From UHGV virus genome UHGV-1600942: a stretch of 18,186 bases of DNA; one strand, 5' to 3'. Under the pieces are notes generated by a model. The model was not told the origin of the DNA. It ran no database searches and saw only the letters and a list, made by a program, of their open reading frames with translations. Both the position numbers and the translations under genes were made by a program. Below, in pieces: positions 2,998 through 17,063 of this stretch; the stretch's first letter is position 1; every line of letters begins with the position of its first letter. Source of the DNA: a virus.

Positions 2998-3037
2998 GCC
3001 ATTACAAAGCCCACCCGCAGATGAGCTTTGTAATGGC
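2998..3037. terminator. 13-bp perfect inverted repeat hairpin between convergent ORF101 and Rz1
   Basis: GCCATTACAAAGC (2998-3010) ... GCTTTGTAATGGC (3025-3037), 14-nt loop. Sits exactly between the 3' ends of two convergent genes. Confidence 0.4.
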
Positions 3038-3294
3038 TACTGTGAGTTGCGTGACGTTTCTATCTTCCTGATACTGGCCTTGTCGATGTTGCACTGGCCC
3101 AGCGCCGAAAGCAGGCTCACATTCAGATCCAGACTGGCCCCATAGGTCAGCGGGTCGGGAATGACTGGCTGGGGCGTTTCAGTGGTCAGGCTTGTTGGCA
3201 GCGGTACCGCCGGAACCGGCACGTAAACTGTTCGCGTACTTCCGCAACCGGTCAGCAGCGGCAGCAGGCACATGACGTGAAGCACAATCATCAT
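3037..3294 (-). CDS. Rz1-like o-spanin (outer-membrane lipoprotein), overlapped architecture
   Basis: Alternate frame overlapping the 3' end of Rz and extending past it. Candidate start MMIVLHVMCLLPLLTGC with lipobox LLTGC; Pro-rich mature region (PVPAVPLPTSLTTETPQPVIPDP) typical of o-spanins. Confidence 0.6.
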   Translation of the reverse strand: MMIVLHVMCLLPLLTGCGSTRTVYVPVPAVPLPTSLTTETPQPVIPDPLTYGASLDLNVSLLSALGQCNIDKASIRKIETSRNSQ

Positions 3295-3571
3295 CCGCAA
3301 CAGCCACTTTGATATCTTCCTGGGTTCTCTGTGACTCCAGTGCGATCTGCTGTTTTGCATGCTGGTTAGCCTCTATAACTGTATTGATGATTTGCAGTGA
3401 TTGCAGAACGTTACGGGTAATGGCAGTTGCTGATTCAGCATTTCGTACAGCCTCATCAGCACGCTCCTTTTCGTGCTGATATTTGCTGTAGTAATGTCCA
3501 GCAGACCAGATGAAGGAACCAATGACGCTAACAACGAAGGCAACAATAACCAGCTTATATCTCAGCCTCAT
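3179..3571 (-). CDS. Rz-like i-spanin
   Basis: 130-aa ORF directly downstream of the endolysin, overlapping its 3' end. N-terminal TM segment (LVIVAFVVSVIGSFIW) followed by a charged, coiled-coil-like periplasmic domain. Confidence 0.8.
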   Translation of the reverse strand: MRLRYKLVIVAFVVSVIGSFIWSAGHYYSKYQHEKERADEAVRNAESATAITRNVLQSLQIINTVIEANQHAKQQIALESQRTQEDIKVAVADDDCASRHVPAAAADRLRKYANSLRAGSGGTAANKPDH

Positions 3572-4031
3572 TTACTACCCCACCAGCTTTTTTAAATCGG
3601 GCAATCAGGTCACCGATTTTATGTTCATACTGACCGTAACCTGCACCAGGTAACGACGCCCAGATATTGCTGCAACGGTCGATTGCCTGACGAATACTGC
3701 CGCGGTCAATCATCGGTAAAGCACCACGCTCTTTAATCTGCTGCAGAGCTACAGCGTCCTGGCTTTCTGGAGAAAAATCTTTCAGGCCAAGCTGTTTACG
3801 GTAAGCATCCCACCAGCGTGAAAGAAGCTGGTAACGTCCGGCAGCTGTTGATTTGAGTTTGGGGTTTAGCGTGACAAGTTTGCGAGGGTGATCGGAGTAA
3901 TCAGTGAACAGTTCGCCACCAACAATAACATCATAACCGTGGTTACGTGTCGGTTGTCGCCCGTTATCCGTTCCTTCTGACCATGCCACCATATCCAGGA
4001 AAGCTTTACGCTGGGAATTTAGTGCCTGCAT
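3555..4031 (-). CDS. R: Endolysin, lambda R-type lytic transglycosylase
   Basis: 158 aa, near-identical over its length to lambda R as I recall it (QRKAFLDM.AWSEGTDNGRQ.TRNHGYDVIVGGELFTDYSDHPRK...). AAGGAG SD 6 nt upstream of ATG. Confidence 0.95.
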   Translation of the reverse strand: MQALNSQRKAFLDMVAWSEGTDNGRQPTRNHGYDVIVGGELFTDYSDHPRKLVTLNPKLKSTAAGRYQLLSRWWDAYRKQLGLKDFSPESQDAVALQQIKERGALPMIDRGSIRQAIDRCSNIWASLPGAGYGQYEHKIGDLIARFKKAGGVVNEAEI

Positions 4032-4034
4032 AAA

Positions 4035-4370
4035 TTACTCCTTCGAGCTACCAAATTTGTTACCGATTACTCGCATTGCAGCCCCACGAATAGCATCGAC
4101 ACCGATCAGCCCCACGCCACCACCAATGGCAACAGAAAGCGATTTAGGCCATCCGACATATTCAAGAGCGGATGCAAAGGTCAGCGTCAGAGCGCCACAT
4201 AGCAAAATCTCGAGCGTTTTTCGCTTCCAGCCACCACCACCGCCAAAATAGGCGATGCGCAAACCAGCCATAACGATCGACATAATCACTGCACCCAGCG
4301 GTGTGTCTCCACGCCACCAGCTCTGAAACAACTCCAGCCAGTCCGGCCAGGTATTTGGGTTATGAGACAT
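4035..4370 (-). CDS. S: Holin, lambda S-like class I
   Basis: Track ORF 4035..4466; likely start MSHNPNTW... at ATG 4368-4370 with GAGGTGA SD. Three hydrophobic segments and a charged C-terminus; sits immediately upstream of R. Confidence 0.8.
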   Translation of the reverse strand: MSHNPNTWPDWLELFQSWWRGDTPLGAVIMSIVMAGLRIAYFGGGGGWKRKTLEILLCGALTLTFASALEYVGWPKSLSVAIGGGVGLIGVDAIRGAAMRVIGNKFGSSKE

Positions 4371-4410
4371 TTCGTCATCTCTCACCTCGCGATATTTGCG
4401 GGTGCTGTGT

Positions 4411-4439
4411 TGGAAATAAAAAGGCCACGCAACGTGGCC
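4411..4439 (-). terminator. Rho-independent terminator (minus strand) between methyltransferase and holin
   Basis: Stem GGCCACG (4423-4429) / CGTGGCC (4433-4439) with 3-nt loop; on the minus strand it is followed by TTTTTATTTCC. Confidence 0.6.
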
Positions 4440-4446
4440 ACCAGAA

Positions 4447-5499
4447 TTATTTCCCCACCAGTTCACTTACCTCTTTCACCGTCTGATTAAACCGCTCTGA
4501 CTCAAGTTCAACACCTAACGCCCGACGCCCCAGCGCCATTGCTGCTTTTATTGTGGAACCGGATCCCATAAAGAAATCAGCAACCAGATCACCAGGTCGA
4601 CTACTGGCATTGATTATTTGCCGGAGCATATCCGCCGGTTTCTCGCACGGATGTTTACCCGGGTAGAACTGAACGGGCTTATGCGTCCAGACATCGGTAT
4701 AAGGCACGGAGACTGATACGGAGAAATAGCGCCGGAGAGATTTAAACTCATCCAGCAATTCAGAATATTTGCGATTCAGTGAATCATAAGATGCCACCAG
4801 CTGGTGGTGTGGTTGTTCCAGTTGTTGTTCCTGAAACTTCTCTGCCGCTATACGGGAAAACAGTGCCTGTAACTTCCGATAGTCAGCCTCATTCGGCAAC
4901 TGCCACTGACTGGCACCAAACCAGTGGGAAACCATATTTTTCTTACCTGTGGCTTCGGCAATTTGTTTTGCCGTTATACCCAGTTCGGCACGAGCATCCC
5001 TGAAATACGATATCAGCGGTGCCATTATGTGCTGTTTGAGTTCCCTTTCTTTTGCCGCATAGCCGTCACTTTTGCCGCGATATGGCCCCTGGTAATGTTC
5101 AGCAAACAGAACGCGCTCTGTGGCAGGAAAATATGCGCGCAGACTTTCTTTATTACACCCATTCCAACGTCCGGACGGCTTCGCCCAGATGATATGGTTA
5201 AGCACGTTGAAACGTTCACGCATCATGATCTCAATATCAGATGCCAGGCGATGCCCACAGAACAGGTAAAGGCTTCCGGCAGGTTTCAACACCCGCCAGA
5301 ACTGGGCCAGACAGTGGTCCAGCCACTTAAGGTAATCTTCGTCCCCTTTCCACTGATTGTCCCAACCGTTAGGTTTCACCTTGAAGTAAGGCGGATCGGT
5401 AACAATCAGGTCAATGGAATCATCAGGCAGGGACTGAATAAAATGCAGGCAATCAGCGTTGATTAAATCAACACTGTTTATTTTTACAGTATTTTTCAT
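4447..5499 (-). CDS. Orphan DNA methyltransferase, beta-class (N6-adenine or N4-cytosine)
   Basis: 350 aa with motif IV DPPY (LIVTDPPYF) near the N-terminus and AdoMet-binding FxGxG (FFMGSGST) near the C-terminus. That motif order is the beta-class permutation. No restriction endonuclease partner is present. Confidence 0.85.
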   Translation of the reverse strand: MKNTVKINSVDLINADCLHFIQSLPDDSIDLIVTDPPYFKVKPNGWDNQWKGDEDYLKWLDHCLAQFWRVLKPAGSLYLFCGHRLASDIEIMMRERFNVLNHIIWAKPSGRWNGCNKESLRAYFPATERVLFAEHYQGPYRGKSDGYAAKERELKQHIMAPLISYFRDARAELGITAKQIAEATGKKNMVSHWFGASQWQLPNEADYRKLQALFSRIAAEKFQEQQLEQPHHQLVASYDSLNRKYSELLDEFKSLRRYFSVSVSVPYTDVWTHKPVQFYPGKHPCEKPADMLRQIINASSRPGDLVADFFMGSGSTIKAAMALGRRALGVELESERFNQTVKEVSELVGK

Positions 5500-5649: not shown

Positions 5650-5877
5650 TTACTGGCAGCGTCTGAATTTATTCCCATACCCGCCGTTATCCTTCGCCAG
5701 ACCCGCCAGAACTAACTGAGTCAGTATTAACTGGCACCGGGCTTCGCTTACTCCGGTAGTTCTCGTCATCATGCGTGGCGTTACCCACTTGTCAGCAGGT
5801 AAGAAATGAAGGACTACGGCGGCGGTTTCTGTCATATCTTGCTGTTTTAGCATGTCTTTTTCCCTTCTGGTTAACAT
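5650..5877 (-). CDS. Hypothetical small protein, possible winged-helix regulator
   Basis: 75-aa ORF upstream of and co-oriented with the methyltransferase. Alternative start at M9 has AGAAGGGA SD. HTH-like segment TRTTGVSEARCQLILTQLVLAGL. Confidence 0.45.
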   Translation of the reverse strand: MLTRREKDMLKQQDMTETAAVVLHFLPADKWVTPRMMTRTTGVSEARCQLILTQLVLAGLAKDNGGYGNKFRRCQ

Positions 5878-5975: not shown

Positions 5976-6000
5976 AAAAAAACCGCTCAGCGGCGGGTTT
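5976..6000. terminator. Candidate tR'-like hairpin flanked by A-run and T-run
   Basis: AAAAAAA-CCGC-tca-GCGG-cgggTTT; reads on the minus strand as hairpin followed by T7. Stem is short (4 bp), so strength is uncertain. Confidence 0.35.
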
Positions 6001-6172
6001 AAGCTGTGTGGCGAAGTAACCACTCTTAACACAGTAATCTAGAAAATGCGGACCGCGTTAGTGATTTTTATCTGTTTTTCCATTATTTTTTTGCCACACA
6101 ACTTAAAACGAAAAATAAAGCAGGCGTTGCCAAACCTCACGGTGACAGTTGGCTTAGAATGAGGACATACTT

Positions 6173-7192
6173 TTGGATAAGTTTGATGAGATTCATGTAG
6201 ACATTGAATCTGAGCAGCAAGCCTTCGATTTGCTTGAAAGCTATCTTGATGGTTATGGTTTACCTGACAGTTTAAGTTTCAACGGATGGCCAAACCTTAC
6301 CATCAGATTAACCGGTGAAAAATTCAACAGATCGCTAACACCTTCAGTTATGAAGGGATTTGTTGAAATGCAAGCTCAAATCAACAAATCATATGCCCTT
6401 GCCAAGTACGGTGTCCCTGACGTCCGCAAACTGACCAAAGAAGAACTTGATGCCCTAGAAATAGAAGTTACGGTAGAACAGGGTTCTTCAATAGTAGAAA
6501 TCAACATTGATGGCTTTTTAACCAAACTCACACAGGAACTTGTTGGTAAAATGAACGCAACTGAGATCATGTTTACTGTTCTCGGCGCAGCAGTCATCTG
6601 GGGCGGAGTAACAGTATTTAAACGGTTCTTGGACAACCGCAAAGATATTCGCCTTGCAGAAATTGCTAAGGATGGAGAGAAAGAACATCTCCGGACTATG
6701 CAGATCATGAGCGAGCAAGAAACTAAACGCCTGCGGGTTATTTCAGAAATGATTGCGGAAAAACCACTTCTCGATAACATGGACCGTATGTCGTATGACG
6801 CTAAAACCCAAATGGTCAAATCCTTTGTGCGTTCAGATAACGCTCAAATTGATGGCGTTACTATTGATTCTGAAATGGCGAAAGAGTTGGTTACGAATGC
6901 TCGTAGACGTTCATCAGAAATGAGGATTGATGGTATTTACCGAATTGAAGAAGTCAATAATACTGACCCAGAGAGTTTCAAAGTTAAGGTCCGACGCGTA
7001 GATACCGACCAACGTCTAACCTGCGTAGTTCAGGATGTTTTCCTTGATGAATCCGGAAACAAAGAAGCATTGCAGCGAGCTGAGTGGGAAAGAAAGCCTG
7101 TACATTTGAGCATTAACGCAAAACACGTCGATGGTGACATTAAGTCAGCAGTAATTCTCTATGTTCGAGATGTGGAACAAAAGCCCGAGTAA
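6173..7192 (+). CDS. Hypothetical 339-aa single-pass membrane protein (AT-rich cargo gene)
   Basis: Long plus-strand ORF on the opposite strand to all flanking phage genes. TTG start at 6173 preceded by GAGGA SD with 7-nt spacer. One hydrophobic segment (EIMFTVLGAAVIWGGVTVF) between an acidic N-terminal domain and a charged C-terminal domain. Visibly lower GC than neighbours. I recognise no family. Confidence 0.7.
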   Translation: MDKFDEIHVDIESEQQAFDLLESYLDGYGLPDSLSFNGWPNLTIRLTGEKFNRSLTPSVMKGFVEMQAQINKSYALAKYGVPDVRKLTKEELDALEIEVTVEQGSSIVEINIDGFLTKLTQELVGKMNATEIMFTVLGAAVIWGGVTVFKRFLDNRKDIRLAEIAKDGEKEHLRTMQIMSEQETKRLRVISEMIAEKPLLDNMDRMSYDAKTQMVKSFVRSDNAQIDGVTIDSEMAKELVTNARRRSSEMRIDGIYRIEEVNNTDPESFKVKVRRVDTDQRLTCVVQDVFLDESGNKEALQRAEWERKPVHLSINAKHVDGDIKSAVILYVRDVEQKPE

Positions 7193-7199
7193 TCGGGCT
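7182..7199. terminator. Hairpin between convergent ORF339 and Q
   Basis: AGCCCGA-gtaa-TCGGGCT; the ORF339 stop codon TAA (7190-7192) lies in the loop and the Q stop is 8 nt away. Confidence 0.4.
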
Positions 7200-7206
7200 T
7201 CAATAA

Positions 7207-7584
7207 TCAATCTTTAACTTCGGGGTCCATCTCTAGACTAATTTCCAACATCGATAGGCAGCCATCAATAAACCCCTCAGCCATCTGTATCTCAATGCGT
7301 ATTAGTTTCTCATCCTTTTTACGAGCCTTGGCGAGCTTTCTTTTAGAGATACCGTATAGGTAATGGGCAACAAGAAGCGAGTGTTCTTCAGGTCTTTTTT
7401 GCTTTAGACGAGCAAGACAACCTTCAATAATTAATGCATCACTATCTGAACAAGCCTGACGTGTTTTGCTTGTATAGGGAAGAAGCCCTTTAAACCCAGC
7501 AGCTATAGGCGAATAGTCTACCCCAGAACTATCACTCGCCGCCCATGCCCCCCAACGATCCAGAACCATCTGAATATCACGCAT
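7207..7584 (-). CDS. Q: Late-gene antiterminator Q (phage 82/21-type)
   Basis: Track ORF 7207..7599 (TTG); likely start MRDIQMVLDRWGAWAA... at ATG 7582-7584 with GGAGA SD. The N-terminal motif matches what I recall for Q antiterminators of lambdoid prophages. Confidence 0.8.
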   Translation of the reverse strand: MRDIQMVLDRWGAWAASDSSGVDYSPIAAGFKGLLPYTSKTRQACSDSDALIIEGCLARLKQKRPEEHSLLVAHYLYGISKRKLAKARKKDEKLIRIEIQMAEGFIDGCLSMLEISLEMDPEVKD

Positions 7585-7601
7585 CAACTTTCTCCACAAA
7601 A

Positions 7602-8597
7602 TCAGGCCAGCACGCCAATTGCCAGCGCGCGATCGATAAAACGAAATATCAGCTCCAGCTGGGAGCCATACTTCTCTTCAAATGCCACGGTATCCGCATG
7701 CAGCTCGTCGTGATGCTTTCTGCACAAAGGCAACACAAAGAGGTCATGCGCTTTTGTACCCATTCCCCCCTGACCGTGGCCTATCAGGTGGTGGGGATCA
7801 TCAGCGGGCTTTCCACAACATGCACACGGCTGTGTCTTAACCCAGCGCGTGTACTTTTCATTAACCCAGCGGCGACGTTTTGGGCGTAACATAAAAGACT
7901 CCGGCGACTCCGGATCCACTTTCAGCGCCAGCACCTTTTTTGCCTTATCCTGGATGATGCTGGTGGCAGGAACCGAAGGCACAAGGTCACTTTCCCGGGT
8001 GACAGACGGCACAACAGGCTTTGGTAATCTCAGTGCCTTACGGGCTGCACTTTCCGGTAAGGCATCCGCCAGGTCATTACGAATCAGCCACCAGCACAGT
8101 TCCGGCATTGTCACAACGTGACTATCATCAAAACCGAGATCCCGACGCACAACAGACAACACCCAGCGGGCACAGTTATCCGTTGCCATTGATTCCAGCC
8201 GTTCCGTGAACTGATCGCGCAGCTGGTTATCACAGTGCCAGCACAGACGGATTGCGCCCGGAGCGTGTCGCATTGTGGTCATGTTCTCGCTGTGCCAGTC
8301 GGAATGAGGCCACTGGCAGCCTTTTTCACGAAGTAACCAGCTTTCAAGACATTCCACGCCACCAGCACGACGGATCACTGCCTCATTGCGGAACACGGCC
8401 CGAACAGCAGGATCATCCGCCAGCGGTTGTGATGCCGCGGGAACGGCACCACTGGCGAAAGATGAATAACGTTCCGGCTCAGGCTCCAGCAGTACACGCC
8501 CCTGCATAAACAGGGGCATCAGCTCTGAACCTGGTCTGAACAATACGATCCCCATACGCGGGGCTATTTCAGGGGTCAGTAGTGCTCTCACGGTCAC
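7602..8597 (-). CDS. DUF968-family nin-region protein with C-terminal HNH-like zinc motif
   Basis: 331-aa ORF; C-terminus CACCGKPADDPHHLIGHG...CRKHHDELH. Start codon uncertain (GTG at 8597, or internal ATGs). Confidence 0.75.
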   Translation of the reverse strand: MTVRALLTPEIAPRMGIVLFRPGSELMPLFMQGRVLLEPEPERYSSFASGAVPAASQPLADDPAVRAVFRNEAVIRRAGGVECLESWLLREKGCQWPHSDWHSENMTTMRHAPGAIRLCWHCDNQLRDQFTERLESMATDNCARWVLSVVRRDLGFDDSHVVTMPELCWWLIRNDLADALPESAARKALRLPKPVVPSVTRESDLVPSVPATSIIQDKAKKVLALKVDPESPESFMLRPKRRRWVNEKYTRWVKTQPCACCGKPADDPHHLIGHGQGGMGTKAHDLFVLPLCRKHHDELHADTVAFEEKYGSQLELIFRFIDRALAIGVLA

Positions 8598-8598
8598 C

Positions 8599-9408
8599 TC
8601 AATGAACGGTATCGAGCAACTTTAACAGCTCAGGGAATCGGGATTCGAAGAAATGCGGCTGCGTCTCGCGCGGATTTGCGGGACTGGTGATGTTCTTGCC
8701 GAACATGCAGCCTTTCGCCGTCAGCGACCAGAATTTTTTGATGTTGTTAATCGCAGTGCGGCTGTATCGTTCACGTTGTTCAACGATCCCCAGCTTCGCC
8801 ATCTGGTGATATGCCTGATTAGCTGTCAGGCGGATACCATACTGCTTCAGCAGTGCACTCAATGATAGCGTGGGGCGGCTTGAGCCATCAGGCGCGTCAG
8901 CAGGAGCATCAATGGCATAGCGCGGTGCCAGATTCGGTAAGCCAACAGCCTCCTGGAGTTTCTGACAGGCACCAAGCACTGAAGAGTTAGACAGGTTTAA
9001 CTCCCGGCGCATAAAGTCCAGCAGGATCACGCCAGCCTGCATCTTGTCAGCAGCCTGTCCGGATAATTTTTCCGGTGCGCTGGTTACCATATCGAAAGTA
9101 CGGATCACCTTCAGATGGAATGACGGGCTGATCCACATTGCATAGGCATACACCAGTTCCTTGCAGACATACGTTCCCCGTTCATTTCCCCCATGAATCA
9201 CACTCACCGGGTCAACACCCAAATTCTGGGTGTTGGTCAATTCATGAACAAGCTCAACAGTTTGTTGGCTGGAAAGAAACTTTCCCGGCTCCTTGGTTCT
9301 GGCATTTGCACCAGATGCTACTGCTGCGCGATGCAGATCGTTCAGGCTGTAACGCCCATAAGCATCACGACGAACTTCAATACCATCAATGACCATCAGA
9401 TTATTCAT
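8599..9408 (-). CDS. KilA-N domain protein (antirepressor-like)
   Basis: 269 aa; N-terminal region (VIDGIEVRRDAYGRYSLNDLHRAA...) resembles the KilA-N/APSES DNA-binding domain. GAGGAG SD 9 nt upstream. Confidence 0.75.
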   Translation of the reverse strand: MNNLMVIDGIEVRRDAYGRYSLNDLHRAAVASGANARTKEPGKFLSSQQTVELVHELTNTQNLGVDPVSVIHGGNERGTYVCKELVYAYAMWISPSFHLKVIRTFDMVTSAPEKLSGQAADKMQAGVILLDFMRRELNLSNSSVLGACQKLQEAVGLPNLAPRYAIDAPADAPDGSSRPTLSLSALLKQYGIRLTANQAYHQMAKLGIVEQRERYSRTAINNIKKFWSLTAKGCMFGKNITSPANPRETQPHFFESRFPELLKLLDTVH

Positions 9409-9427
9409 ACTTCGTTTCTCCTCTTAA

Positions 9428-9817
9428 TCAGGCGGCTGCACCCGCCGTTTTCTCGTACTTACTGATAGTGATCTCGACCTTCCCTTCCGGGATAACCGGT
9501 CCCCACTCCACCAGCATTCTTTTCACCTGACTGTCGTCTTCCCACACACCCGCGTGGGTCAGGGCGTCAAACAGCGCCTTGTTATAGTTGTCCAGATCGC
9601 GGATCCGGTTATCCGGAGGAAACAACACGATCTCCACTGAAGCAGGTGCCGACGTTGGTTTCGGCAGACGACGTAACTGCTCAACTATTGCTGCGCACGC
9701 CGCGCTCTGGAATTTTCGCCCCGCCGCGCTTATCAGACTCTTACCAGCAAACGCCCCTTTGTTGGGGTGTCGCCAGTACGTGTTCACGCTGGGCGGGAAA
9801 GGCAAGATCAGCTTCAT
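9428..9817 (-). CDS. rusA: Holliday-junction resolvase RusA
   Basis: 129 aa; motifs PPSVNTYW and RDLDNYNKALFDALT match the RusA family. GAGAGAGG SD. Confidence 0.9.
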   Translation of the reverse strand: MKLILPFPPSVNTYWRHPNKGAFAGKSLISAAGRKFQSAACAAIVEQLRRLPKPTSAPASVEIVLFPPDNRIRDLDNYNKALFDALTHAGVWEDDSQVKRMLVEWGPVIPEGKVEITISKYEKTAGAAA

Positions 9818-10140
9818 ACTTTCAGGCCTCTCTCATGTAACCAGTGGGCTGCACGCAGCCTGGCGTTTTCCTCACCGGCAAGCAGTGCGCGGATAATCCC
9901 GACCGCCTCGCTGTCGTCGTCCTTCACCGCGGTATGAAGCGTTATCCCCCGGGCCACGCCACGCTTTATCGTGATGACGCCTTTTTTCTCCAGTGCACGA
10001 AGATGCTCTACCGCTGCATTCACTGAACGGTATCCCAGCATGGTTGCCACCTCCTGATTGGTTGGCGGAAAGCCACGCTCTTTCTGGTAAGAAATCAGCA
10101 TATCCAGCACCTGCTGCTGGCATTGAGTTAACGTCGTCAT
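9814..10140 (-). CDS. LexA N-terminal DNA-binding-domain homolog lacking the S24 peptidase domain
   Basis: 108 aa; QQQVLDMLISYQKERGFPPTNQEVATMLGYRSVNAAVEHLRALEKKGVI closely parallels the LexA winged-helix domain. No Ser/Lys protease domain follows. Translationally coupled to flanking genes. Confidence 0.7.
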   Translation of the reverse strand: MTTLTQCQQQVLDMLISYQKERGFPPTNQEVATMLGYRSVNAAVEHLRALEKKGVITIKRGVARGITLHTAVKDDDSEAVGIIRALLAGEENARLRAAHWLHERGLKV

Positions 10141-10790
10141 GCCGCCATCTCCCTGACCAGTTTTTCCGCCTGCTGGCGAACCTGCACCAGAAAGGCTTCA
10201 CCACATGCCTCAAGTTCATCGCGCCCGATGTAGCTGATTGCCGGTCCCTTCCAGGTCTTGTCGAAAACAGCAATAGCACCAGCGAAGAAAGCGCCTGTCG
10301 GCACCTGCTTCTCATCCTTCGGGATAAACCAGGCAGGCAGTTCAAAACCAATACGCCCGCGAATAAAAGCAATATGGTCCGCATCTTCCGGCCACCACAC
10401 TTCGCTGGTGGCAGCTTTGATCAGGAAAACATAGCGCCCGCCCTTATCACGCATGGCACTGGCATGTTTCATGATGTAACGCATGCCGGTGATGTATTGC
10501 CCCTCATGCTGACTGGCGCGGCTGTATGGGGGATTACCAAAGGCAGCACCTTTAAGCTCCGCAAGACGTTCTGACCAGTCATGCGCCAGCGCGTTATCTT
10601 CCGCCGTGTAATACGCGGCACATTTGGCGTTATCACCGTCAGTAAACAGATCCAGAACAAACGGGCCAAACAGGGTGTTAATTCCCCAGAAAATGTTGTC
10701 CGGCGTGCGCCACTGATCGCCCACTTCCTTCAGTTCATGGGCTGGTTTGTTCCGCAATTCCACCAGCGCCTGGCAATATTTATTACTCAT
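10137..10790 (-). CDS. Phage Dam-type N6-adenine DNA methyltransferase
   Basis: Track ORF 10137..10823; likely start MSNKYCQ... at ATG 10788-10790, overlapping the upstream stop. Catalytic NPPY motif (GNPPYS). Confidence 0.85.
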   Translation of the reverse strand: MSNKYCQALVELRNKPAHELKEVGDQWRTPDNIFWGINTLFGPFVLDLFTDGDNAKCAAYYTAEDNALAHDWSERLAELKGAAFGNPPYSRASQHEGQYITGMRYIMKHASAMRDKGGRYVFLIKAATSEVWWPEDADHIAFIRGRIGFELPAWFIPKDEKQVPTGAFFAGAIAVFDKTWKGPAISYIGRDELEACGEAFLVQVRQQAEKLVREMAA

Positions 10791-11284
10791 TAAGCCCCCA
10801 CGTAATTCCCTGACAGATACCACTCTTCACCCGATGCAGCGCGCTTGCTGCTTTTCCGTAAGCACCGCTCACGACGCGCCAGAAAATTGTTTCGTTCTGG
10901 CTGGGAGTGGCTTTCACGGAATGCCGCCATCCACACGGTTGCAGCACGACGGTATAAGCCCATGGACTCCAGTTCTTCAGCCTGGCGGGTCAGGCACAAA
11001 ATCACCCGTGGATCGTTAGTGCCGACATAGAAATTGCGCACAGGTCTGGTTTCTCGAACTGGTTGTGGTTCCGGTTCCTGCGCTCTCTCAGTCAGGCGCG
11101 GGAAATGTCTGCGTGTATCTCCTTCACAACGGTGAGCCACACGCCCACTCTGACGTAACTTGCTTGCTGACTGCAGAACGCGCTGCCGTGAGTAACCTGC
11201 AAAAGCATCCGCAATGTCTCCGGAAGTACATCCCGGATGGGCTTCAATGAATTTCTGAACTTCATTCAAAAGACTCATGATCAC
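10790..11284 (-). CDS. Hypothetical protein with possible N-terminal winged helix
   Basis: 164-aa ORF coupled to the replication initiator upstream (GTG start overlaps its stop; alternative ATG at 11276-11278) and to Dam downstream. Confidence 0.6.
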   Translation of the reverse strand: MIMSLLNEVQKFIEAHPGCTSGDIADAFAGYSRQRVLQSASKLRQSGRVAHRCEGDTRRHFPRLTERAQEPEPQPVRETRPVRNFYVGTNDPRVILCLTRQAEELESMGLYRRAATVWMAAFRESHSQPERNNFLARRERCLRKSSKRAASGEEWYLSGNYVGA

Positions 11285-13452: not shown

Positions 13453-14127
13453 ATGAAAACAATCCATGACATCCGGCGGTCTAACGCCAGAAAACTGAGA
13501 GATGGTGTTGGCGGGAATTCTTCCTTTGCCACTATGATTGATCGCGAGCCAACCCAGACCAGCAGGTTTATGGGAGATGGTGCTACTAAAAATATCGGTG
13601 ACAGCATGGCACGACACATCGAAAAATGTTTCGACCTGCCTGTCGGATGGCTCGATCAAGAACACCAGACAACGAACATCACAAAAAAACCTGATGTTTC
13701 AATCACTAATAAACAAATCACATTAGTCCCTGTCATATCATGGGTACAGGCCGGAGCATGGAAAGAAGTTGGATATTCTGAGGTTGATTTGAGCACAGCA
13801 GAAACGTATCCCTGCCCTGTACCCTGTGGGGAAATGACTTATATCTTGCGGGTGATAGGTGATTCAATGATTGATGAGTACCGCCCGGGAGACATGATTT
13901 TTGTCGATCCTGAAGTACCTGCCTGCCACGGTGACGACGTTATTGCATTGATGCACGATACAGGCGAAACCACCTTCAAAAGGTTGATAGAAGATGGGAC
14001 ACAGCGTTATCTCAAAGCGTTAAACCCAAACTGGCCTGAGCCTTACATTAAGATCAACGGTAATTGCTCTATAATTGGTACAGTGATTTTCTCAGGAAAA
14101 CCAAGAAGATACAAAATCAAAGCCTAA
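13453..14127 (+). CDS. cI: CI-like prophage repressor (HTH + S24 LexA-like autopeptidase)
   Basis: 224 aa; N-terminal HTH region, Ala-Gly cleavage site (WVQAG/AW), and S24 catalytic Ser (VIGDSM) and Lys (FKRL). Confidence 0.9.
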   Translation: MKTIHDIRRSNARKLRDGVGGNSSFATMIDREPTQTSRFMGDGATKNIGDSMARHIEKCFDLPVGWLDQEHQTTNITKKPDVSITNKQITLVPVISWVQAGAWKEVGYSEVDLSTAETYPCPVPCGEMTYILRVIGDSMIDEYRPGDMIFVDPEVPACHGDDVIALMHDTGETTFKRLIEDGTQRYLKALNPNWPEPYIKINGNCSIIGTVIFSGKPRRYKIKA

Positions 14128-14361: not shown

Positions 14362-14568
14362 ATGCACAAAACAGAACCCAAAATCGTCGCGCCTGGCTAC
14401 ACAGATGAGGAAATTTATGAGTGGATGACAAAGAAGCTGGCAGCTATAAACCAGCTTCGTGAAGTGCTGTCTTATCGACAGGAAACAATAGACTCCTTAA
14501 AAAAACTGGATCAGGAAATCACGGTTTTATCACAGGATGTTACTTTAGATATTGTGCAGACAAATTAG
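14362..14568 (+). CDS. Hypothetical 68-aa protein
   Basis: ATG at 14362 preceded by GAGGAG SD with 7-nt spacer. AT-rich; predicted helical (LAAINQLREVLSYRQETIDSLKKLDQEI). No Arg-rich motif, so not N-like. 3' end overlaps the convergent ORF144 by 29 nt. Confidence 0.45.
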   Translation: MHKTEPKIVAPGYTDEEIYEWMTKKLAAINQLREVLSYRQETIDSLKKLDQEITVLSQDVTLDIVQTN

Positions 14569-14974
14569 GATCCCATTCATTTTCGTCAAAATCATCAAAG
14601 TGATGAATTTGTGATCTCCAGTCTCGATAATCTAAAAATTTCTGGGCGGTTACGCTTATTTTATCAAGTGTGAGTTCATCCTGAATTGAAAGAAGAAGTT
14701 CATCAAATTTCATCTCATTAATCTGTTTTGGCATCCAGTGATGCTTCATCAGAATAAGGTGAACCAGAGCCTTTTTCCCATTCAACTGATTATAGGGAGT
14801 GCCGAATTTCTTCCGGTGCTCATGTAAGACAAGGTCCAAAAGAGTAAGTAATGTTGCCCTTGATTCAACTTTGCTTATTTCGACTGATGACACTACCCCA
14901 CTGATTTCAATGCCCCGATACTTTCCAACATTTTCACAGTGGGATTTGTACAGCGTATAGATATTACCGGACAT
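14540..14974 (-). CDS. Hypothetical 144-aa protein (AT-rich cargo gene beside the immunity region)
   Basis: Minus-strand ORF antisense to the early-left operon. ATG 14972-14974 with AAGGAAAAG SD 6 nt upstream. Low GC; acidic C-terminal tail. I recognise no family. Confidence 0.65.
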   Translation of the reverse strand: MSGNIYTLYKSHCENVGKYRGIEISGVVSSVEISKVESRATLLTLLDLVLHEHRKKFGTPYNQLNGKKALVHLILMKHHWMPKQINEMKFDELLLSIQDELTLDKISVTAQKFLDYRDWRSQIHHFDDFDENEWDPNLSAQYLK

Positions 14975-15044: not shown

Positions 15045-15490
15045 CACCTCGCCTGATGTGGCTAAAAGCAGGCACATAACAGCTAAGTATTTTCAACCAG
15101 AGAGAATCCTTAGCGTTGTGGTGAATGCGGCTCAGCGCACGCGGGTTAAGGTTGAGGCTGACAGTCGACCTTCTGTGGATACCCACCCGCCTGGTGTGCA
15201 ACCTTCGCCAGGCACCGGGAGGCACCCGGCACCACAACTTTATGCTGTGTGTAGTCCTGGCGGTACCAGTTTGTACCCTTGCTTCCGGCTGGTACCGTCC
15301 TTTTTACAAAACAGAGAAGAGCATCACCGGACGACGGGCTCATAACCCAATCCATCCGGGCGGCTGCCACCGCAGGTGTTCTTCTCTGTTTTGTGGAGAA
15401 ACTAACCGCCCCTACGGGGGCATTTATGGAAATGTAATTGACTCAATAACCGCCGGACGGTGAGGGCTTCCTTTTACCCGAATTCAGCGC
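15045..15490. other. GC-rich, hairpin-dense non-coding segment (candidate structured RNA or protein-binding locus)
   Basis: About 450 bp with no credible ORF. Perfect 15-bp inverted repeat ACAAAACAGAGAAGA (15306-15320) / TCTTCTCTGTTTTGT (15380-15394) around 59 bp; 9-bp inverted repeat CGGTACCAG (15261-15269) / CTGGTACCG (15289-15297); further GC stems (CCGGG/CCCGG, GCCCC/GGGGC). Confidence 0.3.
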
Positions 15491-15518
15491 GGTGCAGCGC
15501 ATATACGTGGAGAACAAA

Positions 15519-16055
15519 ATGTCATTTATTAAAACTTTTTCCGGGAAGCATTTTTATTATGACAGGATAAATAAAGACGACATCGTTATTAACGATATCG
15601 CGGTTTCCCTTTCAAATATCTGTCGCTTTGCAGGACATCTTTCACACTTCTACAGTGTCGCCCAACATGCGGTGCTTTGCAGCCAGCTGGTGCCGCAGGA
15701 ATTTGCTTTTGAAGCTTTAATGCATGATGCAACAGAAGCATATTGCCAGGACATCCCCGCACAACTGAAACGACTTCTTCCTGACTATAAACGGATGGAA
15801 GAAAAAATAGACGCCGTAATCCGTGAGAAATACGGGTTACCTCCTGTTATGAGCACGCCAGTGAAATATGCCGATCTCATTATGCTGGCAACCGAACGCC
15901 GCGATCTCGGGCTTGATGATGGCTCTTTCTGGCCTGTGCTGGAAGGTATCCCGGCAACAGAGATGTTCAACGTGATTCCACTGGCTCCAGGCCATGCCTA
16001 CGGGATGTTTATGGAACGCTTTAACGAATTATCGGAGTTACGCAAATGCGCATGA
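15519..16055 (+). CDS. HD-domain phosphohydrolase (YfdR-like 5'-deoxynucleotidase family)
   Basis: Track ORF 15492..16055; likely start MSFIKTFSGK at ATG 15519 with GGAGA SD. HD motif (ALMHDATEA) and upstream His (FAGHLSHF); 178 aa. Confidence 0.85.
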   Translation: MSFIKTFSGKHFYYDRINKDDIVINDIAVSLSNICRFAGHLSHFYSVAQHAVLCSQLVPQEFAFEALMHDATEAYCQDIPAQLKRLLPDYKRMEEKIDAVIREKYGLPPVMSTPVKYADLIMLATERRDLGLDDGSFWPVLEGIPATEMFNVIPLAPGHAYGMFMERFNELSELRKCA

Positions 16056-16408
16056 ATGTTTTCGAAATGGAAGGGTTTCTTCGTGGGAGATGTGTACCGC
16101 GAGATCTGAAAGTGAATGAAACGGATGCTGAATACCTGGTGCGTAAATTCGATGCGCTTGAAGCTAAATGTGCAGCACAGGAAAACAAAGTAATACCAGT
16201 GTCAACTGAACTGCCACCAGCAAATGAAAGTGTTTTGTTATTCGATGCTAACGGAGAAGGCTGGCTAATTGGCTGGCGTTCTCTCTGGTACACCTGGGGA
16301 CAAAAAGAAACCGGAGAATGGCAGTGGACATTTCAGATCGGGGACCTTGAAAACGTCAATATCACTCACTGGGCAGTAATGCCAAAAGCACCGGAGGCTG
16401 GAGCATAA
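16046..16408 (+). CDS. DUF551-like prophage protein
   Basis: 120 aa; C-terminal W-rich motif (WYTWGQKETGEWQW...THWAVMP). Overlaps the HD gene stop; GGAG SD 8 nt upstream. Confidence 0.75.
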   Translation: MRMNVFEMEGFLRGRCVPRDLKVNETDAEYLVRKFDALEAKCAAQENKVIPVSTELPPANESVLLFDANGEGWLIGWRSLWYTWGQKETGEWQWTFQIGDLENVNITHWAVMPKAPEAGA

Positions 16409-16713
16409 TGACCACTTTTACCGACAAAGAACTGATTAAAGAAATTAAAGAGCGTATCAGCAGCCTTGACGTGCGAGACGATATTGAGCGCCGTGCTTAT
16501 GAAATCGCACTCCTATCTCTGGAAGTAGAACCAGATGAACGCGAAGCTTATGAATTATTCATGGAAAAGCGTTTTGGTGACTTAGTAGATCGTCGGAGAG
16601 CAAAAAACGGCGATAACGAATACATGGCATGGGATATGACTCTCGGTTGGATCGTCTGGCAGCAACGAGCTGGTATCCATTTCTCAACAATGTCACAGCA
16701 AGAGGTGAAATAA
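16408..16713 (+). CDS. Hypothetical 101-aa protein (early-left operon)
   Basis: ATG overlaps the upstream stop (TAATG) and its own stop overlaps the xis start (TAATG); acidic, helical. Confidence 0.6.
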   Translation: MTTFTDKELIKEIKERISSLDVRDDIERRAYEIALLSLEVEPDEREAYELFMEKRFGDLVDRRRAKNGDNEYMAWDMTLGWIVWQQRAGIHFSTMSQQEVK

Positions 16714-17063
16714 TGGAGCCATACAGCCTCACACTCGATGAGGCCTGTCATTTTCTCAAGATATCCAGACCGACTGCCATTAACTGGATACGCACAGGGC
16801 GTCTTCAGGCAACACGCAAAGATCCCACTAAGAATAAATCTCCTTACCTCACAACACGACAAGCCTGCATTGCGGCTCTTCAGTCTCCGCTGCATACTGT
16901 CCAGGTGAGCGCGGGTGATGGCATAACAGAGGAAAGAAAATGTCACTCTTCCGCAGAGGTGAAATATGGTACGCCAGTTTCACATTGCCGAACGGTAAAA
17001 GATTTAAACAGTCTCTTGGAACAAAGGACAAAAGGCAGGCGACAGAACTCCATGACAAGCTAA
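16713..17063 (+). CDS. xis: Excisionase-like HTH protein
   Basis: Track ORF 16629..17063; likely start [31 protein letters not shown] at ATG 16713. Immediately upstream of int; the ORF runs 124 nt into int in another frame. Confidence 0.6.

What the first reader, a model, noticed from the sequence alone, without database searches (positions are those of the whole stretch)
6173..7192. Opposite-strand, low-GC 339-aa membrane protein inserted between Q and the late/lysis region
Q is normally followed directly by its target late promoter. Here a 1-kb gene on the opposite strand sits between Q and the candidate late promoter/terminator, with its own SD and TTG start, a hairpin separating it from Q, and clearly lower GC than the flanking nin and lysis genes. 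The protein has an acidic N-terminal domain, one TM helix and a charged C-terminal domain, and I recognise no family. Position, orientation and composition are those of a lysogen-expressed moron; an exclusion, abortive-infection or envelope-modifying function is plausible but unproven.
Basis: partly seen in the sequence, partly recalled or inferred. Interest (0 to 1): 0.75.

Follow-up and report, generated by a model that had tools for sequence, protein, structure and literature searches.

The report
Uncharacterised prophage membrane-protein cargo gene
A real, strongly conserved 339-aa gene of unknown function sits as swappable cargo between the Q antiterminator and the late leader of an E. 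coli prophage; its relatives mostly occupy the slot that holds rexAB in lambda, so it is probably a lysogen-expressed anti-phage protein, though nobody has tested this.

Summary
A 339-aa ORF (6173-7192, + strand, TTG start, GAGGA Shine-Dalgarno) lies opposite to all flanking phage genes, between Q (7207-7599, -) and the conserved late leader. It is low in GC (42% against 50%) and ends in a hairpin.

It is a genuine gene: pN 0.08 against pS 0.81 versus Enterobacter, and at least 1,521 sequence clusters of relatives. It is also true cargo. A related phage joins Q directly to the leader, and other E. coli prophages carry different low-GC cassettes at the same junction, including a RexAB-like pair and lipoproteins.

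Relatives in eight genera lie directly downstream of the cI repressor on the same strand, including the exact lambda rexAB slot in E. coli.

No Pfam, NCBIfam, PADLOC or PDB match exists; PHROG 6191 has no assigned function. The AlphaFold2 model (pLDDT 87.6) has an N-terminal domain of no known fold, one marginally hydrophobic helix, a charged helical region and a C-terminal OB-fold.

The identical protein, WP_000357056.1, is listed but untested in DefensePredictor (Science 2026), log-odds 6.55.

Best reading: a lysogen-expressed, membrane-anchored anti-phage protein (about 0.55). The mechanism is unresolved. Moderate interest.

The parts
6173..7192 (+). Coding sequence of the 339-aa cargo protein (TTG start, TAA stop). 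Identical in sequence to WP_000357056.1 and a member of phrog_6191.
   Evidence: phrog_6191, E 1.6e-152; pN 0.08, pS 0.81.
6161..6165 (+). Shine-Dalgarno GAGGA, 7 nt upstream of the TTG start.
   Evidence: Sequence read directly. GAGG and TTGG are conserved in the six-genus alignment.
6076..6172 (+). AT-rich upstream spacer that belongs to the inserted cassette and is the presumed location of the gene's own promoter. No promoter has been identified.
   Evidence: Homology to gene-less PPyecE_EH1910 ends near 6070. The only hit is a 9/12 promoter-like match (GTGACA-18-CATACT) that would start transcription inside the ORF. No -35/-10 pair with conserved spacing appears across genera.
6173..6556 (+). 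N-terminal alpha/beta domain (residues 1-128, net charge -10). It is the most conserved part of the family (core 45-110; Q67, L87, G104 and S105 nearly invariant) and has no known fold.
6563..6619 (+). Hydrophobic helix (residues 131-149, IMFTVLGAAVIWGGVTVF), the predicted single membrane anchor. It is followed by a K/R-rich flank (KRFLDNRKDIR).
   Evidence: The segment is conserved in position in 95% of 259 relatives, with C-flank K+R of 4.1 against 2.0 on the N-flank. It is marginal in part of the family.
6908..7177 (+). C-terminal OB-fold domain (residues 246-335).
7181..7200 (.). GC-rich hairpin (AAGCCCGA-GTAA-TCGGGCTT) between the convergent ends of the cargo gene and Q, with the stop codon in the loop.
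   Evidence: -16.9 kcal/mol on the + strand (z -3.9) and -15.8 kcal/mol on the - strand (z -3.1). It was not called as a canonical terminator.
7207..7599 (-). Antiterminator Q (PF06530), convergent with the cargo gene.
   Evidence: (E 1.1e-52) and the annotation.
5982..6075 (-). Conserved late leader shared with prophages that lack the gene. It contains a terminator-like hairpin plus U-run (5994-5982) and a GCGGACCGC element (6048-6056), and is the candidate PR'/tR' region. The promoter itself is not pinned down.
   Evidence: Alignment to PPyecE_EH1910 and to five other genera. Terminator-like site. The same sequence appears in L035 and L037.
5650..5877 (-). First ORF downstream of the leader (75 aa, phrog_331, function unknown). 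It forms the left flank of the cargo site and is conserved in strains carrying other cargo (WP_000917724.1).

Best explanation
The gene is mobile prophage cargo (a moron). I think it is expressed in the lysogen and protects the lysogen against infecting phages from the inner membrane.

Shown:
- It is an insertion of about 1.13 kb between Q and the late leader.
- The insertion site is a cargo hotspot.
- The family is old, under purifying selection, and confined to prophage contexts in the loci examined.
- Its usual position is directly downstream of the cI repressor on the same strand. That is the slot that holds rexAB in lambda.

Inferred:
- In the lysogen the gene is transcribed from its own promoter, and a conserved weak TTG start keeps the protein level low.
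- Because it converges on Q, antiterminated early-right transcription would run antisense through it and shut it down once the prophage is induced.
- The protein is held in the inner membrane by one helix. By the positive-inside rule, the charged helical stalk and the OB-fold face the cytoplasm.

The mechanism I commit to is Rex-like, but within a single polypeptide. The C-terminal helical and OB module binds an infection cue at the membrane, such as entering DNA or an ejected or early phage protein. The conserved N-domain and membrane helix then oligomerise and compromise membrane function, aborting the infection. I give this about 0.30.

A non-lethal block of genome entry is nearly as likely, at about 0.25.
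For: Cargo status:
- Gene-less PPyecE_EH1910 aligns up to about 6070 and again from about 7201.
- The gene is present in 96 of 5,426 complete E. coli genomes, 86 of them at 99% identity or more.
- The same junction carries other cargo in other strains: a DUF6731 protein plus a 4-TM 147-aa protein (RexAB-like architecture), or a 148-aa lipoprotein. All are low in GC and on the same strand as this gene.
- DUF6731 is tied to a DefenseFinder RexA cluster in DefensePredictor Table S5.

Expression context:
- Relatives lie 25-150 bp downstream of an S24/HTH repressor on the same strand in Salmonella, E. coli (cro-cI-gene-N-ral-cIII-kil-gam-bet), Morganella, Pseudomonas, Treponema MAGs, Moraxella phage Mcat17 and E. 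coli phage phi458. In Acinetobacter two genes intervene.
- Other copies lie among tail genes or next to a type VI retron.

Selection:
- pN 0.08 against pS 0.81.
- The TTG start is conserved across genera.

Membrane anchor.

Structure.

Independent prediction:
- DefensePredictor Table S10 lists WP_000357056.1 as a predicted novel defence gene, with mean log-odds 6.55 against a strict cutoff of 4.
- Of the transcription units tested in that study with log-odds 4.55-8.55, 15 of 29 protected against phage (my count).

Precedents:
- DS-34 is a validated membrane protein encoded downstream of CI.
- Tai of phi80 is an opposite-strand defence gene. Its authors hypothesise that this arrangement switches it off during the lytic cycle.
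Against: - There are no experimental data for any family member. This protein was not among the units tested by DefensePredictor.
- No promoter could be identified upstream.
- The hydrophobic helix is marginal. The uncharged run has a median of 18 residues; Kyte-Doolittle reaches 1.6 or more in only 125 of 194 relatives; the unweighted Hessa sum has a median of +2.85 kcal/mol.
- The N-out topology implied by the charge bias would require exporting a 128-aa domain with 12 K/R and no signal peptide.
- The full-length model has pTM 0.74. The N-domain drops from about 89 to 72.8 pLDDT when modelled alone. This suggests that it packs against the rest of the protein, which fits poorly with two domains on opposite sides of a membrane.
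- No catalytic or pore-forming domain is recognisable. The OB domain is not basic (K+R 16, D+E 19).
- No PADLOC model matches.
- About half of comparably scored predictions failed to protect.
Confidence: 0.55

Rival explanations
1. Superinfection exclusion by blocking genome entry. The membrane-anchored protein sits at the site of DNA injection and stops translocation stoichiometrically, without killing the cell. It would bind the tape-measure or ejection proteins, or the DNA, through the OB-fold. This works like P22 SieA, T4 Imm or HK97 gp15, or like SNIPE without the nuclease. It is a sub-variant of the defence reading and the main alternative to the Rex-like mechanism.
For: - The protein has one predicted anchor helix and no enzymatic domain.
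- The predicted cytoplasmic OB-fold lies close to the membrane.
- SNIPE shows that a single-pass protein with a cytoplasmic DNA-binding domain can act on entering DNA.
- Lipoprotein cargo at the same hotspot is the sort of gene that excludes phages at the envelope; that comparison rests on my own knowledge.
- The P. aeruginosa copy sits between tail genes I and J.
Against: - Known entry blockers are small and narrowly distributed. That statement rests on my own knowledge.
- This family spans at least 1,521 clusters at 50% identity, from Enterobacterales to Moraxella and to MAGs assigned to Treponema. Its most conserved part is the N-domain, which does not suggest co-evolution with particular phage proteins.
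- The OB domain is not basic.
- The conserved weak TTG start and occasional disruption hint at a cost of expression. One genome has an IS1 insertion and truncated copies exist.
Confidence: 0.25
2. A lysogenic-conversion gene unrelated to phage defence. It would be an envelope or stress-related membrane protein that benefits the host, for example in serum resistance, metal handling or adhesion. Bor, Lom and Iss are prophage cargo of this kind.
For: - A membrane anchor is predicted.
- The same prophage type in APEC O78 carries iss.
- Many carriers are animal or clinical isolates.
Against: - There is no signal peptide or lipobox.
- The charge bias places the OB domain in the cytoplasm.
- The family also occurs in Halomonas/Vreelandella, Acinetobacter, Rahnella and MAGs assigned to Treponema, so it is not tied to pathogens.
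- Its predominant position is the cI operon, and it shares both of its slots with Rex-type cargo.
Confidence: 0.12
3. A prophage housekeeping or regulatory factor expressed together with cI. It would be a membrane-tethered modulator of the lysis-lysogeny switch or of induction. RexA of lambda is reported to modulate the switch in this way.
For: - The gene is co-oriented with cI and lies within 25-45 bp of it in at least five lineages: phi458, Pseudomonas (two loci), Treponema and Mcat17.
- RexA is reported to influence the switch, as cited in PMC12894663.
Against: - The gene is dispensable and sporadic: 1.8% of E. coli genomes carry it, and closely related prophages lack it.
- It also occurs far from cI, beside Q, among tail genes and beside a retron.
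- A core regulator would be expected to stay with its immunity region.
Confidence: 0.06
4. Not a membrane protein at all. The hydrophobic helix would be the buried core of a compact soluble or oligomeric protein whose N and C domains pack together. Its function would still be unknown, and it could still be defensive.
For: - pTM is 0.74 for the whole chain, and pLDDT over the hydrophobic helix is 94-96.
- The N-domain loses confidence when modelled alone.
- Hydrophobicity is marginal in about a third of relatives.
Against: - An uncharged stretch of about 18 residues rich in I, L, V and F is conserved at one position in 95% of relatives, with a consistent K/R excess on one flank.
- It contains small-xxx-small and GG motifs, which are typical of interacting membrane helices. 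That last point is my own knowledge.
Confidence: 0.2

Closest known systems
Lambda RexA/RexB abortive-infection system
   Same: - Both are lysogen-expressed prophage cargo.
- The family's commonest position is the rexAB slot, including cro-cI-gene-N in an E. coli lambda-like prophage.
- At the Q/leader hotspot of this window's prophage type, an alternative cassette has Rex-like architecture: a soluble DUF6731 protein plus a 147-aa 4-TM protein.
- Both include a membrane component.
   Different: - This is one gene, not two.
- It has one marginal transmembrane helix, against four or five in RexB.
- There is no sequence relation to RexA (hhalign probability 0.1), and neither PF15969 nor PF15968 is hit.
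- No PADLOC model matches.
SNIPE (PD-lambda-1), a membrane-bound nuclease acting on injected DNA (PMC13190303)
   Same: - Both are single polypeptides.
- SNIPE has one membrane helix with its large part in the cytoplasm (shown experimentally); the same is predicted here.
- Both have a nucleic-acid-binding type of domain near the membrane (DUF4041 in SNIPE, an OB-fold here).
- Both are prophage or mobile cargo in E. coli.
   Different: - This protein has no DUF4041 and no GIY-YIG nuclease.
- Its anchor is central, at residues 131-149, and is preceded by a conserved 128-aa domain. SNIPE's N-terminal region is short and variable.
DS-34 (a CI repressor plus an AbiZ-like membrane protein), validated in DefensePredictor
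   Same: Both are membrane proteins encoded directly downstream of a prophage CI. DS-34 was shown to protect against phage.
   Different: The sequences are unrelated. DS-34B has several C-terminal hydrophobic segments and an HHblits match to AbiZ. This family has no HHblits or Foldseek match to any known defence protein in Table S10.
Tai (phi80 orf63), a tail-assembly-inhibition defence gene (PMC11364771)
   Same: Both are prophage cargo on the strand opposite to the surrounding phage operon. The Tai authors suggest that taiEcA is expressed constitutively in the lysogen and hypothesise that its arrangement switches it off in the lytic cycle.
   Different: There is no homology (hhalign probability 0.3). 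The word 'transmembrane' does not occur in the Tai paper. Tai lies inside the late operon, whereas this gene lies between Q and the late leader.
Small inner-membrane superinfection-exclusion proteins (P22 SieA, T4 Imm, HK97 gp15)
   Same: All are prophage-encoded or phage-encoded inner-membrane proteins that protect against incoming phage. That description rests on my own knowledge.
   Different: Those proteins are much smaller and have no globular domains. No Pfam family of that kind is hit.

Membership tests
phrog_6191 / DefensePredictor cluster WP_000357056.1 (uncharacterised) | Full-length match to the family profile, with a constant architecture of about 320-350 aa. | tested here: met
   phrog_6191 matches at E 1.6e-152 over residues 3-337 of 339. 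There are 101 homologues at E 1e-25 or better. A profile search finds 1,521 clusters; the 150 best listed are nearly all full-length matches. The sequence is identical to WP_000357056.1.
Moron (independent cargo unit in a temperate phage) | Present or absent between otherwise conserved neighbours. | tested here: met
   PPyecE_EH1910 lacks the gene. Alternative cargo occupies the same junction in other strains. The gene occurs in 1.8% of E. coli genomes.
Moron (independent cargo unit in a temperate phage) | Base composition different from the flanking phage genes. | tested here: met
   The gene is 42.1% GC, against 49.8% for the window and 55.6% for DUF968. Q, at 44%, is also low.
Moron (independent cargo unit in a temperate phage) | Its own promoter and terminator, with expression from the repressed prophage. 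| tested here: inconclusive
   No convincing or conserved sigma-70 promoter was found. The 3' hairpin is strong but lacks a U-run on the + strand. Expression cannot be tested with these tools.
Lambda RexAB | Homology to RexA (PF15969) or RexB (PF15968). | tested here: not met
   Pfam gives no hit for this protein, while lambda RexA and RexB hit at 1e-97 and 8.5e-92 in the same kind of scan. hhalign against RexA gives probability 0.1.
Lambda RexAB | A two-gene unit of a soluble sensor plus a multi-pass membrane effector. | tested here: not met
   This is a single gene with no conserved partner across about 25 loci.
Lambda RexAB | Location directly downstream of cI in the same orientation. | tested here: inconclusive
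   This is met by relatives in eight genera, including E. coli L033. It is not met by the window copy, which lies beside Q. The window's own cI is at 13453-14127.
SNIPE (PD-lambda-1) | [quoted passage not shown] | tested here: not met
   There is no such Pfam or PADLOC hit. The defining features are taken from PMC13190303.
Tai (phi80 orf63) | Sequence or profile similarity to TaiEcA. | tested here: not met
   hhalign probability is 0.3. tblastn against 50,697 phage records does not hit phi80.
OB-fold superfamily (C-terminal domain only) | A five-stranded closed beta-barrel with a helix between strands 3 and 4. | tested here: met
Single-pass inner-membrane protein | A membrane-spanning helix that is experimentally inserted, with a defined topology. 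| not testable with these tools
   Only hydropathy and charge bias are available.
Known anti-phage defence systems (PADLOC-DB v2.0.0) | A match to any of the 5,027 models. | tested here: not met
   No families match at E up to 1. Distant relatives phi458 Orf11 and Pmp14_0057 also give none.

The most novel reading that the evidence does not exclude
This would be the founding member of a new, widespread, single-polypeptide anti-phage system of temperate phages. There are at least 1,500 sequence clusters, from Enterobacterales to Moraxella and to MAGs assigned to Treponema. The N-terminal domain has no known fold. It would be functionally interchangeable with RexAB at two different prophage slots. 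It would couple an OB-fold sensor at the inner face of the membrane to a membrane-acting module, in effect a one-chain Rex.
Probability: 0.3. Interest if true: 0.65.

Novelty: new variant of a known kind. Interest (0 to 1): 0.5.

Why it matters
If the protein protects against phage, it adds a broadly distributed defence family with a new fold. It would also show that the Q/late-leader junction of this prophage type is a second hotspot for Rex-type cargo, alongside the cI-downstream slot. The same cargo classes shuttle between the two sites. That gives a simple rule for finding more exclusion genes in lambdoid prophages.

It would also provide a minimal one-protein system for asking how a membrane-bound sensor recognises infection.

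The finding is tempered by two facts. The exact protein is already on a public list of 1,041 predicted but untested E. coli defence clusters, and only about half of comparably scored predictions have been validated.

Tried and rejected
Sequence family searches gave nothing usable.
- Pfam gave only a sub-threshold hit to GpJ FNIII-A (E 0.002, 18.6 bits against a cutoff of 27).
- NCBIfam, PADLOC, PDB by single sequence and PDB by profile all gave nothing.

Fold searches matched only the OB domain.
- The AFDB50 library was unavailable.

Specific identities were tested and rejected.
- Tai and RexA showed no relation.
- SNIPE was rejected for lack of its defining domains.
- The validated DefensePredictor systems of similar size or context were read directly and are unrelated: DS-17/NUCS is Shedu-like, DS-34/CITO is AbiZ-like, and DS-3 is a PIN protein.

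A role as retron effector was rejected. In Pasteurella phage Pmp14 the neighbouring HTH_VI and RT_VI genes match the two PADLOC type VI retron models, so I read them as a self-contained type VI retron on my own knowledge of that class. The family member is only adjacent to it.

The promoter search found no conserved -35/-10 pair. The good TAGAAT at 6155-6160 lies too close to the Shine-Dalgarno sequence to be useful.

Literature searches by accession, by PHROG number and by keywords found no characterisation. The Brenes & Laub 2025 paper on E. coli prophage defence could not be read.

Model coordinates and PAE could not be obtained. Whether the N and C domains pack together is therefore unresolved.

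A lysis function was rejected. The gene is on the wrong strand, and its relatives lie in the cI operon.
Full report
**What is there**

The window is part of an E. coli lambdoid prophage whose phage genes run on the - strand. From high to low coordinates these are:

| Coordinates | Strand | Feature |
|---|---|---|
| 13453-14127 | + | cI (S24 repressor) |
| (not determined) | - | cro-like and CII-like genes, a replication gene, PerC |
| 10137-10823 | - | adenine methylase |
| 9814-10140 | - | LexA-like fragment |
| 9428-9817 | - | RusA |
| 8599-9408 | - | KilA-N |
| 7602-8597 | - | DUF968 |
| 7207-7599 | - | Q (PF06530) |
| 5650-5877 | - | 75-aa ORF |
| 4447-5499 | - | second DNA methylase |
| 4035-4466 | - | holin |
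| 3555-4031 | - | lysozyme |
| 3037-3571 | - | Rz/Rz1 |

It starts with TTG, 7 nt after a GAGGA. RefSeq annotates the same coordinates as WP_000357056.1, 'hypothetical protein'. The window protein is identical to it, with one synonymous difference.

**It is a real gene under constraint**

An open frame of this length is expected about 6e-5 times by chance in the window. Against the Enterobacter orthologue, non-synonymous divergence is 0.08 while synonymous sites are saturated at 0.81. The pattern holds out to Pseudomonas.

A word-indexed search found 101 relatives down to 26% identity, all named 'hypothetical' and none with a Pfam domain. An exhaustive profile search of 1.84 billion representative proteins found 1,521 clusters at E 1e-3 or better and 590 at 1e-30 or better. 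The 150 best listed are 256-430 aa, mostly about 320-360, and nearly all match over the full length, so the architecture is constant.

The TTG start is conserved in E. coli, Enterobacter, Entomohabitans, Rahnella, Serratia and Salmonella. I read this as selection for weak translation.

**It is cargo, and the site is a hotspot**

Phage PPyecE_EH1910 has a related Q (about 80% identical) and DUF968, and the same 75-aa ORF, methylase and leader. Its Q stop codon, however, lies about 25 bp from the leader. Homology with the window runs from 5500 to about 6070 and resumes at about 7201. The insert is therefore about 1.13 kb, made of the gene and about 100 bp of upstream spacer.

Only 96 of 5,426 complete E. 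coli genomes carry the gene: 86 at 99% identity or more, and 10 with a roughly 65%-identical allele. One copy is split by IS1.

Searching with the flanks showed other cargo at the same junction:
- Strain AREA_494 carries a 310-aa DUF6731 protein followed by a 147-aa protein with four hydrophobic segments.
- Strain AREA_497 carries a 148-aa lipoprotein.
- Strain Esc4 carries a 141-aa lipoprotein beside a different Q.

All of these are 35-39% GC. The first two are on the same strand as the gene studied here.

The DUF6731 plus 4-TM pair has the architecture of lambda RexA/RexB. DefensePredictor's Table S5 ties DUF6731 to a DefenseFinder RexA cluster. BLASTP against lambda RexA and RexB shows nothing.

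**Where relatives live**

I looked at about 25 loci. All are prophage or phage contexts.

1. Beside Q on the opposite strand: E. coli, Enterobacter, Entomohabitans and Rahnella (Serratia has DUF968 on that side). These are close relatives, 73-100% identical, with different lysis cassettes downstream.

2. Directly downstream of an S24/HTH repressor on the same strand, with gaps of 25-150 bp:
   - Salmonella
   - E. coli L033, where the order is cro-cI-gene-N-ral-cIII-kil-gam-bet-exo, exactly the lambda rexAB slot
   - Morganella
   - two Pseudomonas loci
   - MAGs assigned to Treponema
   - Moraxella phage Mcat17
   - E. coli phage phi458 (a distant member, hhalign probability 98.1)
   - Acinetobacter, with two genes in between

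3. Among tail genes: P. aeruginosa, between I and J, and Vreelandella maris.

4. Next to a type VI retron at the end of Pasteurella phage Pmp14 (hhalign probability 99.5).

The cI-linked position is the commonest and the most widespread. Gaps of 25-45 bp in five lineages imply co-transcription with the repressor, and hence expression in the lysogen. This is the strongest evidence for when the family is expressed. For the window copy itself it remains an inference.

**The protein**

AlphaFold2 with a 52-sequence alignment gives a confident model (pLDDT 87.6, pTM 0.74). Its parts are:
- an alpha/beta N-domain (1-123)
- a hydrophobic helix (129-144, continuing to 163)
- a highly charged helical region (167-218)
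- a small hairpin plus helix
- a C-terminal beta-barrel (248-333)

The N-domain core (45-110) is nevertheless the most conserved region. Q67, L87, G104 and S105 are nearly invariant in 194 diverse sequences. No catalytic motif is recognisable.

**Is it a membrane protein?**

The hydrophobic segment is conserved at the same position in 95% of 259 relatives. Its median uncharged run is 18 residues. The C-terminal flank carries twice as many K+R as the N-terminal flank (4.1 against 2.0; C exceeds N in 78% of sequences). By the positive-inside rule the OB half would be cytoplasmic.

There are reasons for caution:
- Hydrophobicity is marginal in about a third of the family.
- An N-out topology would need export of a 128-aa domain without a signal peptide.
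- The high pTM, and the fall in N-domain confidence from about 89 to 73 when it is modelled alone, suggest that the domains pack together.

I could not obtain coordinates or PAE. I put membrane anchoring at roughly 0.6-0.7.

**What is already known**

No paper mentions the accession or the PHROG. DefensePredictor (DeWeirdt, Mahoney and Laub, Science 2026) lists WP_000357056.1 in Table S10. That table holds 1,041 uncharacterised predicted defence clusters of the E. coli pangenome. The entry has mean log-odds 6.55 (range 4.51-9.74, strict cutoff 4) and no HHblits or Foldseek link to known defence proteins.

The protein is not among the cloned transcription units in the two of three parts of Table S6 that I read, either by accession or by size. 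The accession is also absent from the whole of Table S6. Within +/-2 log-odds of its score, 15 of 29 tested units protected against phage (my count).

The validated systems of similar size or context (DS-17, DS-34, DS-3) are unrelated in sequence or domain. DS-34 is a precedent for a membrane protein downstream of CI. Tai of phi80 is a precedent for an opposite-strand defence gene; its authors hypothesise that this arrangement switches it off during the lytic cycle. There is no homology to Tai.

**Interpretation**

The moron reading is well supported. I put the defence reading at about 0.55. It rests on five points:
- the cI-operon context of most relatives
- interchangeability with Rex-type and lipoprotein cargo at two slots
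- sporadic distribution under strong purifying selection
- adjacency to other defence genes in some phages
- an independent machine-learning prediction

Between mechanisms I lean slightly to a Rex-like, one-chain sensor-effector acting on the membrane (about 0.30). My reasons are the very broad distribution, the highly conserved non-sensor-like N-domain, the conserved weak start codon, and occasional inactivation. A non-lethal block of genome entry is nearly as likely (about 0.25). A non-defence conversion function (about 0.12) or a regulatory role (about 0.06) cannot be excluded.

**Verdict**

The gene belongs to a large uncharacterised family with a partly new fold, so it is not 'already known'. 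It is, however, one of about a thousand publicly listed predicted defence candidates in E. coli, and its category, prophage-borne lysogen-expressed exclusion cargo, is familiar. Interest is moderate (0.5).

The most useful by-product is the Q/late-leader junction itself. It is a cargo hotspot that exchanges the same cargo classes with the cI-downstream slot.

Noticed in passing
window 6031-7206; loci L011, L035, L036 and L037: The junction between Q and the late leader is a cargo hotspot in this prophage type. It is empty in PPyecE_EH1910. In AREA_494 it holds a DUF6731 310-aa protein plus a 4-TM 147-aa protein (RexAB-like architecture). In AREA_497 it holds a 148-aa lipoprotein, and in Esc4 a 141-aa lipoprotein beside a different Q. 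All cargo is 35-39% GC.
   Followed up: partly
window 14540-14974 (-): A 144-aa ORF of 37.9% GC lies just downstream of this prophage's own cI (13453-14127, +) but on the opposite strand. It has no Pfam or PADLOC match. It may be a second piece of cargo, in the rex slot of this very prophage.
   Followed up: partly
L019 (Pasteurella phage Pmp14) 3653-6017: Genes matching the PADLOC HTH_VI and RT_VI models (a type VI retron) lie immediately upstream of a distant family member (Pmp14_0057) at the end of the phage genome. Rfam found no retron ncRNA at E up to 1.
   Followed up: partly
L002 (P. aeruginosa prophage) 15237-16969: A DarT plus Macro-domain (DarTG-like) pair lies a few kb downstream of the family member, beyond the tail-tip gene. 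This is more defence-type cargo in the same prophage.
   Followed up: no
window 4447-5499 (-) and 10137-10823 (-): The prophage carries two DNA methyltransferases. One (N6_N4_Mtase, PADLOC MTase_II at 1.6e-152) lies inside the late operon between the leader and the holin. The other, an adenine methylase, lies in the early-right operon. No cognate nuclease was seen.
   Followed up: no
window 6048-6056 and 5982-5994: A GCGGACCGC palindrome and a terminator-like hairpin with a U-run are conserved in every Q-site locus, whether or not it carries cargo. They are probably part of the Q-dependent late promoter, leader and terminator. No -35/-10 pair reached the scan threshold, so the late promoter itself is not located.
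   Followed up: partly
E. coli PD7, NZ_CP074047.1 3578284-3580080 (hit H44): The cargo gene is interrupted by an IS1B element in one complete genome, and truncated copies (137-190 aa) occur in draft assemblies. This is consistent with occasional inactivation of a costly gene, but there are too few cases to test.
   Followed up: no
L010 (Acinetobacter sp. BY419) 6308-10193: Downstream of cI, the family member is flanked by an HSDR_N-domain protein (390 aa) and a GGDEF protein (315 aa). Neither matches PADLOC. This looks like a stack of unknown cargo in the immunity region.
   Followed up: partly
window 6173-7189, residues 247-291: There is a sub-threshold Pfam match of the OB region to the FNIII-A domain of tail-tip protein J (E 0.002, 18.6 bits against a cutoff of 27). 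In P. aeruginosa the family member sits immediately upstream of J. This is probably chance.
   Followed up: no
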